64,000 nucleotides of DNA from assembly GCA_964106645.2 (NCBI GenBank), contig OZ067042.1; one strand, written 5' to 3'. Made by a program: the position numbers. The DNA is from Podarcis pityusensis. Its lineage: Eukaryota. Below, one piece after another: positions 55,701 through 58,700 of the stretch (position 1 is the first letter of the stretch; each line of letters starts with the position of its first letter).

Positions 55701-58700
55701 GCATGGAACTTTTCAGGAAATGTGAGGCAGTTGCATAGGTGGGTCCTCAAACCCTGACTTTATCCAGGCTCAGATTCTTTGCCTCCTCATGGGGCTGGTT
55801 CCTCAAGAGATAGATAGCAGAATGGCCCTTGATCAGTAACTGCTTGTCATGATGGAACAGTAGTGGACTCTCCTTCCTTGGAGATTTTAAAGCAAAGGTT
55901 GGATGGCCATCTGTCATGGGTGCTTTAGCTGAGATTCCTGCATTGCAGGGGGTTGGACTAGATGACCCTCAGAGTCCCTTCCAACTCCCAATATTCTTTT
56001 GAGTCTATGATGGCTGTGTACTTCATCCAGTATTGAAAGCAGAATGCCTCTGAATGCCAGTTTTTGGGTAACACAAGTGGGGGAGTGTTACTGTGCTCAT
56101 CTACTGCATGTGGGCTCCCCATGGGCATCTGGTTGGCCTCTAAGAACAGTTTGCTGGATGAGATGCATCTTTGATCTCATCCAGCAGGGTGGTTCTCATA
56201 TTCTCAATTTGCCGTGTGGGCAGCTAATTTGTATGTGCTCTTGTTCCTCATCAGATTTTGATGTTGTCAGGATCCATTCCCAGGGGCTCCCAAAAGGAAA
56301 GAAAGTGGCTTCTGTTAGTTGGGCAGTCTCTTTGCTTGATCCTAATTATGCACAGAAAAACCACAGGGTTTTTTCCCTTGAGAGCCAGTGTGGTGTAGTG
56401 GTTAAGAGCGGTAGTCACGTAATCTGGGGAACCGGGTTCGCGTCTCCGCTCCTCCACATGCAGCTGCTGGGTGACCTTGGGCCAGTCACACTTCTTTGAA
56501 GTCTCTCAGCCCCACTCACCTCACAGATTGTTTGTTGTGGGGGAGGAAGGGAAAGGAGATTGTTAGCCGCTTTGAGACTCCTGAAGGGGAGTGATAAAGT
56601 GGGATATCAAATCCAAACTCTTCTTCTTCTTCCTTGGTGTTGAAGGACTCTTTGTAATCATGTATGAACTGAAAACCAGTTGGTAATAATTTGTGCCCTA
56701 TAATTACAATGAGAAACTGTAAGCATAGTGTAATCCAGATATCTTGAGTGGAGAAAAGTTAAATACTTTTATAGAGAATTATAACAGACAGGTTTTGTTA
56801 CTGTTATGCTTTACTGTGAACCACTTGGAGCACAATTTTAAGAGAAAACTTACATTGGTTTGTAAATTTATTTGGTTTGCAAATAAAGCTACAAAGGGGT
56901 TTATCCAATGGTTGTATGTATGGAGGGCAGCTTGCCAACAAATTTTGCTATTTTTCTCTTCCCTCTCTGTGGCCTCTGCAAAGGTTTGGGGAGCCCTCTG
57001 AGGAACTCAGGGGCTCCAGAGCAGGAGAAGAGAAAAAGACAATAGTTGCTTGAGCTGCTTGCTACTTATGCACTCTTTGGGTGTAACCCAGGGATTGTGA
57101 CAAAATATAGAATTGCCTTTTTTCTTCGTACCTAAATGATTTTGTAACATTTCCATGTCTCAGTTTTCAGATATGTTGCTCTACACCAGCAAAGGAGTCA
57201 CGGGTACCAATCAATTCAAGATTCACGGTCATCTCCCTCTGCACGGGATGCTGGTGAGTGATACATCACACAGCAATCAAACATCAAAATAATAAAATGT
57301 GTTTCATGTTAACCTCGGCTTCCTCTTTATACTGAACTTTTAAGGGACTCTTGCGAAACGCGCAATTCTGGTTACTGTAGTTTTTCTCCAGTCATTAGTA
57401 GACACAGATTTCTGGGTTAGATTTAAGTAGTCAAAAGAACAAGCACTGCCAGTTTTTTGGCATTGGAGTAGCTGGGAAGACGAGAAAACTCTTGATTGTG
57501 CTTTTGCTATTTTCAAGGCTAGCTGGATGTGCTAATTGGTGTTGCTTCCACACCAAAATGCTACATTCCCTCCCACTCCTTAATGGAACTTTTTTTTATG
57601 TGTCTGTGTTTGATTTTCAGCTGATAGTCCTGGATCCTCCGGTGAGTAATAAGCCAGTGACTACTATGCTTAGCAGCTTGCTGAAATGACAGTGCAATTG
57701 TAGGTGATAGTTTTCCCATTAGAAACAAAGTAGAAACGAAATACTGTTAATGTAGCTAGTTGCTGTTGTCACACCATTTATTTTAGTGTAGATGTGTGTG
57801 CTGTTGCTCACTGAGTGATGAAGAAATTTCCTTTGTTGTAGGTGGAAGAGAGCGAAAACGAATGGTCTGTCCCTCACTGCTTTACCATTTATTCAGCTCA
57901 AAAAACCATAGTAGTGGCAGCAAGGTAAGGATTTTCTCAGTGCTCAATTGTGAAAAAGAGTGTTAAAGCACTGGTAAAATAGGCATCTTTCAGTGTGTGT
58001 ATATGCCACTATACCCCAGGCTACGCAATGTGAGAGACCACACTCTCCCTGAGTCATTATGCAGTCATCTGTTGAGGCAAAACCTGATTTCCCCATGGAG
58101 TAGTGCTCCAAGCTTACATTAAAGTGCAATAGTATGTTGCTTCCTCTCATCTTTATGAGACTTCAGATTTCAGGAGGAATAGAAAAAGATTCAAACTGTG
58201 TTGTGGTTTTATCAAACCTGAATTTGTGTGGAATTTAAAATTGTTGAGGCAAGCTTCTGCAGTTGCCAGAATGGTAACATAGACTGCAAATTTTGTTATT
58301 TCAGTGGGAATTTATGGAAACATGAAATTGCTCTAAGTATGGGTCAAGCAGTGCTTTTCTTGAACCATAAATCACAAACAGCAGCCGAGCTCTGAAAACG
58401 TGCTTAGCCATCATTCCTGTCTCTATTTTTCAGCACTCGTCTGGAAATGGGGAAGTGGATGGAAGATCTAAATATGGCAATTGAAATGGCCAAGAAATTC
58501 ACTGAGAAATCAGAGATGTTTCTAGAAAACTCAGTGTGCAATCGTTCTAACAGTGAGTAGCTTTCATGTCACTTGTGATTAGTGATTCTTGGTTAGTTGT
58601 GTGCTCTTCAGGCTTCTGAGATGGAAAATGGTATAGATTACGCAGCCTTCAGTCTTTTTCACTAAGTAACATTCCATACCCTCTCCGATGCTCCAGATAT

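What the first reader, a model, noticed from the sequence alone, without database searches (positions are those of the whole stretch)
57560..57700. 21-nt in-frame microexon inserting LIVLDPP into PH1
Seen: CCTTAAT branch-like motif, long U/UG tract, TTTTCAG|, 21 nt, then consensus |GTGAGT, frame-preserving between GML and VEES. The peptide is absent from the canonical FARP2 sequence as I recall it. Established: 3-27-nt frame-preserving microexons are mostly tissue-regulated (often neural) and remodel interaction domains. The proximal UGC typical of SRRM4 targets is not evident, so another regulator is possible. Inference: it alters the PH1 surface or DH-PH-PH packing.
Basis: partly seen in the sequence, partly recalled or inferred. 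Interest (0 to 1): 0.7.

Follow-up and report, generated by a model that had tools for sequence, protein, structure and literature searches.

The report
Conserved FARP2 21-nt microexon in PH1
The 21-base segment is a real, very old alternative mini-exon of the FARP2 gene that adds seven amino acids (LIVLDPP) to its first PH domain; gene models of many other vertebrates already carry it, but its function appears unstudied.

Summary
Window 57621-57641 is a 21-nt, stop-free, phase 0/0 segment with AG before it and GTGAGT after it. It lies in the 588-nt intron between two FARP2 PH1 exons (57171-57253 ...LPLHGML; 57842-57924 VEESENEW...). The window is a lizard-like squamate FARP2 gene, not human.

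The decisive evidence is orthology. Named FARP2 isoform models from sawfish, shark, gar, bowfin, teleosts, snakes, turtles, birds, marsupials and eutherians carry a 7-residue insert L-I-[VI]-L-[DE]-x-P at exactly this junction. Four of its 7 positions are invariant in 140 insert-bearing proteins. Both the with-insert and without-insert forms are modelled within single species; Chelonia X9 and X11 differ only by LIVLDPP. So this is an ancient alternative cassette microexon that is already in public annotation. It was missing from 25 named lizard isoforms seen here.

No paper describing it was found, and both solved FARP structures are the form without the insert.

AlphaFold models of near-identical bird proteins place L-LIV where L-VEE forms strand beta5 and push VEESENEW into a low-confidence loop. 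PH1 confidence falls from about 88 to about 62. Tissue regulation and any effect on autoinhibition remain inferences. Novelty: already known. Interest: modest.

The parts
57171..57253 (+). FARP2 PH1 exon upstream of the microexon (..MLLYTSKGVTGTNQFKIHGHLPLHGML). Acceptor ttttcag, donor CTG|GTGAGT.
   Evidence: sequence; matches FARP2 4GZU residues 253-279 and FARP1 4H6Y residues 252-276; tblastn HSP to Zootoca FARP2.
57578..57584 (+). Branch-point-like CCTTAAT. TTAAT fits yUnAy, with the A at 57583, 37 nt before the AG.
   Evidence: This is a motif match only; function is not shown.
57590..57620 (+). U-rich / UG-rich tract ending in TTTTCAG (acceptor AG at 57619-57620). UGUGU at -22 and -16. 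No UGC within 61 nt upstream.
   Evidence: Acceptor score 1.4 bits, about equal to exon A's 1.3.
57621..57641 (+). 21-nt cassette microexon, phase 0/0, encoding LIVLDPP.
   Evidence: Identical or near-identical 7-residue insert at the same junction in 140 named FARP2 proteins.
57642..57647 (+). Strong 5' splice site GTGAGT (context CCG|GTGAGT).
   Evidence: 7.2 bits; only 8 of 3809 + strand GT sites score as high.
57842..57924 (+). FARP2 PH1 exon downstream (VEESENEWSVPHCFTIYSAQKTIVVAA + 2 nt). Acceptor ttgttgtag, donor AAG|GTAAGG.
   Evidence: matches 4GZU residues 280-306, E = 1.3e-10; 100% identity to Zootoca residues 811-837.

Best explanation
Window 57621-57641 is the lizard orthologue of an ancient, alternatively spliced cassette microexon of FARP2, a FERM-DH-PH-PH Rho-GEF family protein.

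Shown:
- The segment has canonical, strong-donor splice signals and preserves the frame.
- Its peptide is identical to an insert found at the same exon junction in FARP2 isoform models from cartilaginous fish to eutherian mammals.
- Isoforms with and without it are modelled in the same species.

Inferred:
- When included, the seven residues enter PH1 right after 'GML', at the start of strand beta5.
- The hydrophobic L-I-V(-L) takes the beta5 positions that V-E-E(-S) occupies in the skipped form.
- D-P-P ends the strand, and the acidic VEESENEW segment is displaced into a beta5-beta6 loop that is 7 residues longer.
- This changes one face and loop of PH1. It could alter how PH1 packs within the autoinhibited DH-PH1-PH2 unit, or what PH1 binds.
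- Inclusion is probably regulated by tissue. The regulator may use the UG-rich tract rather than the UGC element typical of SRRM4 targets. No expression data were available to test this.

The confidence given (0.8) is for the identification as a real, conserved alternative microexon taken together with the general claim that it acts at the protein level in PH1. On its own, the identification is about 0.95 and the specific strand-replacement picture about 0.4.
For: Gene identity: 25 colinear tblastn HSPs cover Zootoca FARP2 residues 1-1019. The closest named proteins are lacertid FARP2 at about 90-91% identity over HSPs.

Junction: in 4GZU (FARP2) and 4H6Y (FARP1) the two flanking exons abut directly.

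Orthologous inserts:
- One search used a window exon as query and listed 120 of 2666 hits. Of those 120, 11 carry exactly LIVLDPP, 1 carries LIVLDPP plus 12 residues, 100 carry no insert, and 8 lack the region.
- One search used Cuculus isoform X4, residues 785-845, and listed 120 of 977 hits. All 120 carry L-I-[VI]-L-[DE]-x-P: 16 bird, 4 turtle, 3 snake, 1 marsupial, 3 chondrichthyan, 2 holostean, 90 teleost and 1 unnamed.
- One search listed 8 eutherian models (Eulemur, Meles x3, Enhydra, Lutra, Equus asinus x2). All 8 carry LIVLDPP.

Alternative use within species:
- Chelonia X9 and X11 differ only by LIVLDPP.
- Python X1 and X3 have it, X2 does not. Liasis T1 has it, T2 does not. Pristis X1 and X2 have it, X3 does not.
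- In the dasyurid marsupial cluster (14 members scanned plus its representative P0219), 8 have it and 7 do not.

Constraint: across 140 insert-bearing named proteins, positions 1, 2, 4 and 7 are invariant, position 3 is V or I, and position 5 is D or E. In mustelids the downstream exon has diverged (VEEGEHERSV) while LIVLDPP is unchanged.

Splice signals.

Structure (AlphaFold on the same 149 sequences, only the order and first row differing):
- Without the insert (Grus P0068): mean pLDDT 68.6, pTM 0.66. PH1 blocks 281-390 score 79-94. Strand 339-342 is LVEE, followed by a short helix at 344-347.
- With the insert (Limosa P0121, 563 of 584 aligned columns identical, 14 substitutions plus the 7-residue insert): mean pLDDT 59.8, pTM 0.46. 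PH1 blocks score 45-78. Strand 339-342 is L-LIV. Residues 345-355 have pLDDT below 50.
- Both models hit 4GZU first in Foldseek, with TM normalised to target of 0.68 versus 0.61.
Against: - There are no transcript data for this species, so inclusion here is not shown.
- 25 named lizard isoform models lack the insert: Zootoca, Podarcis x3 species, Lacerta, Tiliqua, Pogona, Varanus, Hemicordylus, Anolis. Only the ab initio Lerista model has it, with 12 extra residues. Only 15 of the 30 members of the main lizard cluster were listed.
- Most supporting proteins are computational isoform models, and I could not see their transcript support.
- Two of the three protein searches used insert-bearing queries, so the 140:169 ratio says nothing about how often the exon is used.
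- The structural reading rests on one AlphaFold model of low confidence in exactly the region of interest. No coordinates were available, so contacts with DH or PH2 could not be measured.
- The UG-tract regulator idea is a motif observation only.
Confidence: 0.8

Rival explanations
1. The sequence is a relic or silent pseudo-exon in lizards. It is kept by descent, but the exon is no longer, or only negligibly, spliced in this lineage.
For: 0 of 25 named non-snake lizard isoform models carry it. The acceptor is only moderate by my crude matrix, 1.4 bits.
Against: - The frame, AG, GTGAGT and all seven codons are intact, and the peptide is identical to that of snakes, turtles, birds and mammals.
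- A neutral 21-mer plus two splice sites would not be expected to survive unchanged over squamate divergence times.
- The Lerista (skink) model includes it.
- Microexons are commonly missed by annotation pipelines (general knowledge, recalled).
- Exon A, which is constitutive, has an equally modest acceptor score of 1.3.
Confidence: 0.06
2. Inclusion mainly acts as an off-switch. The insert destabilises or unfolds PH1, so the inclusion isoform is a loss-of-function or dominant-negative form rather than one with a new binding surface.
For: With the insert, AlphaFold confidence for PH1 falls from about 88 to about 62 and pTM from 0.66 to 0.46. The insertion point is inside the beta-sandwich, at the start of beta5, not in a surface loop.
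Against: - Four of 7 residues are invariant and two more are conservatively substituted over more than 400 million years. That argues for a specific structural or binding role rather than mere disruption.
- The model still builds a beta5 strand from L-LIV, and the rest of PH1 keeps its strands and C-terminal helix.
- Lower pLDDT may only reflect the absence of any solved example.
Confidence: 0.12
3. It is a chance AG...GT pair in an intron, of no biological meaning.
For: Short AG-N21-GT open segments are common. The acceptor score alone is unremarkable: 330 of 4257 AG sites are as good.
Against: An identical or near-identical peptide occupies the same junction in 140 named proteins from sharks to mammals. 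The donor is among the 8 best of 3809. It is the only stand-alone microexon-like pair in 64 kb on either strand.
Confidence: 0.01
4. It is a constitutive exon in this species, always included, rather than an alternative one.
For: In fish, many isoforms carry it, including several labelled X1.
Against: In every tetrapod species where several isoforms were seen, skipped forms are also modelled. The closest relatives' models all skip it.
Confidence: 0.03

Closest known systems
Annotated FARP2 isoforms carrying the same insert in other vertebrates. Accessions shown: Chelonia mydas X9 XP_037764691.1, Python bivittatus X1 XP_007431877.1, Danio rerio X3 XP_021332792.1, Pristis pectinata X2 XP_051873562.1, Sminthopsis X3 XP_074154048.1. 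Eutherian models seen: Eulemur X2, Equus asinus X1, Meles X1.
   Same: Same gene, same exon junction (GM[LI] | [VIA]EE), same length (7 residues, 21 nt). The peptide is identical in tetrapods and sawfish (LIVLDPP) and is LIVLD[ATP]P or LIVLEAP in ray-finned fish. It is alternative to a skipped form.
   Different: Only the species differs. In non-snake lizards it was not seen in 25 named models, so for this lineage it may be unannotated.
Vertebrate neural (SRRM3/SRRM4, eMIC-dependent) microexon programme. Recalled from Irimia et al. 2014 and Raj et al. 2014; neither paper was read here.
   Same: Length of 3-27 nt, frame-preserving, deeply conserved, lying in a structured interaction domain, with a strong 5' splice site and a long pyrimidine-rich region upstream.
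   Different: The defining UGC element near the 3' splice site is absent; the nearest UGC is 62 nt upstream. Neural enrichment and SRRM4 dependence are unknown. No paper in the library holds FARP2 together with 'microexon' or 'Srrm4'.
Cytohesin/GRP1 PH-domain 3-nt microexon, the diglycine versus triglycine isoforms (recalled knowledge, not checked here).
   Same: An alternative microexon inside a PH domain that changes the domain's binding behaviour without changing the rest of the protein.
   Different: That case adds one glycine in the beta1-beta2 lipid-binding loop. This one adds seven residues at beta5 and probably re-registers a strand. No lipid-binding change is shown here.
Crystal structures of autoinhibited FARP2 and FARP1 DH-PH-PH (4GZU, 4H6Y; He et al. 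2013; paper not held).
   Same: Same domain. They define where the junction lies. PMC6041286 (passages read) summarises that the GTPase-binding site in DH and PH1 is blocked by PH2 and other structural elements.
   Different: Both constructs are the form without the microexon. The inclusion form has no experimental structure.

Membership tests
Alternative cassette microexon (30 nt or shorter) | Length of 30 nt or less, flanked by canonical AG and GT | tested here: met
   21 nt; AG at 57619-57620; GTGAGT at 57642-57647.
Alternative cassette microexon (30 nt or shorter) | Multiple of 3 with no stop codon, so both isoforms stay in frame | tested here: met
   Seven codons (LIVLDPP). Both junctions lie between codons.
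Alternative cassette microexon (30 nt or shorter) | Both inclusion and skipping products exist | tested here: inconclusive
   Met in orthologues at the level of isoform models: Chelonia X9/X11, Python X1/X2, Pristis X1/X3, and the dasyurid marsupial cluster with 8 carrying it and 7 not. There are no transcript data for the window's own species.
Alternative cassette microexon (30 nt or shorter) | Evolutionary conservation of the exon | tested here: met
   140 named proteins from chondrichthyans to eutherians carry it; 4 of 7 residues are invariant. Nucleotide and intron conservation could not be tested because no eukaryotic genome collection was on hand.
SRRM4/eMIC-dependent neural microexon | UGC motif close upstream of the 3' splice site | tested here: not met
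   There is no UGC from -61 to -1; the nearest is at -62. UGUGU occurs at -22 and -16 instead.
SRRM4/eMIC-dependent neural microexon | Neural-enriched inclusion and dependence on SRRM3/4 | not testable with these tools
   No expression data. 0 papers hold FARP2 with 'microexon' or FARP2 with 'Srrm4'. Supplementary tables are closed.
FARP2 orthologue (FERM-DH-PH-PH Rho-GEF family) | Colinear exons covering FERM, DH, PH1 and PH2, with best matches to FARP2 rather than FARP1 | tested here: met
   25 colinear HSPs to Zootoca FARP2 residues 1-1019. Of the 120 listed hits, 113 are named, 111 of them as FARP2 and 2 as 'hypothetical protein'; 7 are unnamed. They carry the FERM, RhoGEF and PH Pfam domains. 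Exon B scores better against 4GZU (FARP2, 1.3e-10) than 4H6Y (FARP1, 4e-5). Exon A alone scores slightly better against FARP1.

The most novel reading that the evidence does not exclude
The microexon could be a splicing-controlled switch of FARP2 autoinhibition that is shared by all jawed vertebrates and has gone unstudied. By replacing the acidic beta5 strand (VEES) of PH1 with a hydrophobic one (LIVL) and extruding the acidic segment as a loop, inclusion would change how PH1 packs against DH and PH2, or against the membrane. The inclusion isoform would then have different, possibly de-repressed, exchange activity or a different partner. This might bear on why FARP1 and FARP2 have been suggested to be 'pseudo-GEFs' on the basis of skipped-form constructs (PMC6041286, passage read).
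Probability: 0.15. Interest if true: 0.6.

Novelty: already known. Interest (0 to 1): 0.33.

Why it matters
As a sequence feature it is ordinary: a conserved alternative microexon that public gene models of many vertebrates already contain. Three things are worth noting.

- The seven residues are almost unchanged from sharks to mammals, more so than parts of the neighbouring exon in some lineages. That implies a specific protein-level role.
- It sits inside the PH1 beta-sandwich of a GEF whose regulation is explained by structures of the form lacking it.
- No paper in the searchable library mentions it.

It is therefore a cheap, well-defined target for anyone working on FARP2/plexin/semaphorin signalling, and a probable annotation gap in lizard genomes.

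Tried and rejected
- A 27-residue exon was too short for the protein search. I used the 50-residue PH2 exon at 63834-63983 instead.
- He et al. 2013 (PMC3595398) is not held. Which PH1 elements touch DH or PH2 could therefore not be read, and the model tools give no coordinates, so no contact analysis was possible.
- The search of cluster representatives returned 150 unnamed proteins. Because some could be human FARP1 or FARP2, I did not fetch or use them. As a result, whether FARP1 or invertebrate FARP homologues have an equivalent insert stayed unchecked.
- Amphibians, lungfish, coelacanth and jawless fish did not appear among the listed hits, so their status is unknown. Human FARP2 was not looked up.
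- RNA folding of 57560-57700 shows nothing special (z = +0.72; 154 of 200 shuffles fold as well).
- Motif scan: no RBFOX (U)GCAUG or PTB-type CUCUCU within 150 nt on either side. YGCY motifs at +26, +38 and +120 downstream are noted but not interpretable.
- I looked for an association between microexon inclusion and the variant 'HVCWYRNQ' exon in tetrapod models. With the insert: 12 variant and 25 canonical. Without: 26 variant and 137 canonical. I rejected this as evidence because isoform models are combinatorial and my sampling was biased.
- The window's own exons were never joined.
- Supplementary tables of microexon catalogues, which may list FARP2, are closed.
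Full report
**What is in the sequence.**
The window is vertebrate-like (CpG observed/expected 0.28, no N). It carries, on the + strand, almost a whole FARP2 gene: 25 colinear tblastn HSPs run from a start codon at about 8366 to 63985 and cover residues 1-1019 of Zootoca vivipara FARP2. The closest named proteins are lacertid FARP2 (Podarcis muralis X1 90.9%, Lacerta agilis X2 90.6%, Zootoca 90.3% identity over HSPs). Skink, agamid, varanid, snake, turtle and bird proteins score lower. I take the window for a squamate (lizard-like) genome, not human. 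No human contig was met.

**The observation.**
- Exon A is 57171-57253 (...LPLHGML, then GTGAGT). Exon B is 57842-57924 (VEESENEW...).
- In the 588-nt intron between them, 57621-57641 reads ctgatagtcctggatcctccg, which translates to LIVLDPP. It is preceded by ...gtgtctgtgtttgattttcAG and followed by GTGAGT.
- Both junctions fall between codons, so the frame holds with or without the segment.
The tract between is 58% T and 18% G, with two UGUGU. There is no UGC within 61 nt upstream.
- I scored splice sites with a crude matrix whose frequencies I recalled from memory. The donor is among the 8 best of 3809 GT sites on this strand. The acceptor is moderate (330 of 4257 AG sites are as good) but equals that of constitutive exon A.
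- It is the only stand-alone pair of such sites 3-30 nt apart in the whole window on either strand. The three other + strand pairs are ends of real exons.
- From those counts I estimate about 0.003 such in-frame, stop-free pairs expected by chance in this intron.

**What it is.**
The two flanking exons abut directly in both solved structures: FARP2 4GZU (residues 279|280) and FARP1 4H6Y.

The protein collection settles the question. Three searches were run:
- *Window PH2 exon as query (63834-63983; 120 of 2666 hits listed).* 11 proteins carry exactly LIVLDPP between GML and VEES, one (Lerista, ab initio model) carries LIVLDPP plus 12 residues, 100 have no insert, and 8 lack the region.
- *A named insert-bearing isoform, Cuculus X4 residues 785-845 (120 of 977 hits listed).* All 120 carry a 7-residue insert L-I-[VI]-L-[DE]-x-P. 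They comprise 16 bird, 4 turtle, 3 snake, 1 marsupial, 3 cartilaginous-fish (Pristis, Stegostoma), 2 holostean (gar, bowfin) and 90 teleost clusters, plus 1 unnamed.
- *The marsupial isoform, Sminthopsis X3 residues 360-880.* This reached eutherians. All 8 eutherian models listed (Eulemur X2; Meles X1, X3, X5; Enhydra X1; Lutra; Equus asinus X1, X6) carry LIVLDPP. Ten further marsupial models and platypus X1 do not. Because the query bore the insert, this ranking favours insert-bearing forms.

Within species, both forms are modelled:
- Chelonia X9 and X11 differ by nothing but LIVLDPP.
- Python X1 and X3 versus X2, Liasis T1 versus T2, and Pristis X1 and X2 versus X3 show the same split.
- In the dasyurid marsupial cluster, 8 models have it and 7 do not.

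Over all 313 named proteins examined, 140 have the insert, 169 do not, and 4 lack the region. Positions 1, 2, 4 and 7 are invariant, position 3 is V or I, position 5 is D or E, and only position 6 varies freely. In mustelids the next exon has drifted (VEEGEHERSV) while the microexon has not.

This is therefore an ancient alternative cassette microexon under protein-level constraint, and the window holds its orthologue. Most of the supporting proteins are computational isoform models, and I could not see their transcript evidence.

**A local wrinkle.**
None of 25 named non-snake lizard models carries the insert (Zootoca, three Podarcis species, Lacerta, Tiliqua, Pogona, Varanus, Hemicordylus, Anolis). 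Only 15 of the 30 members of the main cluster were listed. Only the Lerista model has it. Either inclusion is low or restricted in the lizard tissues that were sequenced, or annotation missed it. The intact frame and splice sites here argue against decay.

**How it probably works.**
As stand-ins I folded two near-identical bird DH-PH-PH proteins (563 of 584 aligned columns identical) using the same 149 sequences in each alignment, differing only in order and first row.
- *Without the insert (Grus).* Mean pLDDT 68.6, pTM 0.66. PH1 blocks score 79-94. After 'GM', strand 339-342 is L-V-E-E, then a short helix (ENEW), then beta6, beta7 and the C-terminal helix.
- *With the insert (Limosa).* Mean pLDDT 59.8, pTM 0.46. 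PH1 blocks score 45-78. The same strand positions 339-342 are L-L-I-V. Residues 345-355 (PPVEESENEWA) fall below pLDDT 50.
- Both models find 4GZU first by Foldseek, with TM normalised to target of 0.68 versus 0.61.

My reading is an inference from a weak model. The hydrophobic start of the insert takes over beta5, the two prolines stop the strand, and the acidic segment that normally forms beta5 and the following turn becomes a longer beta5-beta6 loop.

PMC6041286 (passages read) summarises the solved structures as autoinhibited: the GTPase site of DH and PH1 is blocked by PH2 and other elements. It also says FARP1 and FARP2 have been suggested to be pseudo-GEFs. A change in PH1's sheet and loop could plausibly affect that packing or a binding surface, but nothing here shows it. 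The original structure paper is not held and no coordinates were available.

**Regulation.**
The defining UGC of SRRM4-type microexons is absent. UG-rich sequence lies at -22 to -12, and there is no RBFOX or PTB-type motif within 150 nt. The region has no unusual RNA structure. Tissue specificity is untested.

**Literature.**
- FARP2 with 'microexon': 0 papers.
- FARP1 with 'microexon': 0 papers.
- The peptide words LIVLDPP or LIVLDAP: 0 papers.
- FARP2 with 'Srrm4': 0 papers.
- FARP2 with 'alternative splicing' and 'PH domain': 8 papers, seen as listing and abstract starts only. None appears from its title or abstract to be about this exon.
- Supplementary tables, where microexon catalogues list genes, are closed and may well contain it.

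**Verdict.**
The exon is already present in public annotation across vertebrates, so it counts as already known, though apparently unstudied and possibly unannotated in lizards. The functional inferences remain open.

**Left unchecked.**
- Transcript evidence in this species.
- Intron conservation, since no eukaryotic genome collection was available.
- FARP1 and invertebrate homologues. The 150 representatives carry no names and could include human proteins, so I did not use them.
- Amphibians, lobe-finned fish and jawless fish.
- Human FARP2.

Noticed in passing
window 59973-60085 (possible upstream alternative acceptor near 59945), compared with exon 59223-59384: A second 'HVCWYRN' exon (..LPPRYLLGQTQRPNTITHVCWYRNQSLSLSDYLCMIQ) lies about 600 nt after the canonical linker/PH2 exon (..HHRANTTMHVCWYRNTSVSMTDHSVAVE) and resembles its 3' part (48% identity HSP). 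Among 313 named FARP2 proteins, 163 use only the canonical form, 40 only the variant, and 2 (ab initio models) both. 108 were missed by the first pattern, and 39 of the fish among them proved to use a variant-type form. It looks like a pair of mutually exclusive duplicated exons. Falco X4 and X6 also differ by IFCSLAVSPE versus K just upstream.
   Followed up: partly
window 60624-61000 (GC-rich region about 60380-61245): An intronic tandem repeat of a 59-nt GC-rich unit: 6.4 copies, 95% matches. It gives long spurious ORFs in all six frames.
   Followed up: partly
window about 3200-4400: A GC-rich, CpG-island-like stretch with long ORFs on both strands, about 4 kb upstream of the first coding exon (8366-8575). 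It is probably the FARP2 promoter and 5'UTR exon.
   Followed up: no
window about 55100-55250: A CA/TG dinucleotide microsatellite in the intron before the exon at 55446-55523, seen as THTHTH / CVCVCV translations.
   Followed up: no
Lerista edwardsae model P0042: This ab initio skink model has LIVLDPP followed by 12 extra residues (CSLTDEASFALQ) before VEES. They resemble the sequence just upstream of exon B in the window (..CSLSDEEISFVV, 57806-57841, in another frame). This is probably a mis-set acceptor in that model rather than a real longer exon.
   Followed up: partly
Ophiophagus hannah protein P0132: Its source names it FARP1, but its PH1 flanks and insert are identical to those of Naja and Liasis FARP2. 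It also contains both 'HVCWYRN' exons in tandem. It is probably a misnamed, over-joined FARP2 model.
   Followed up: no
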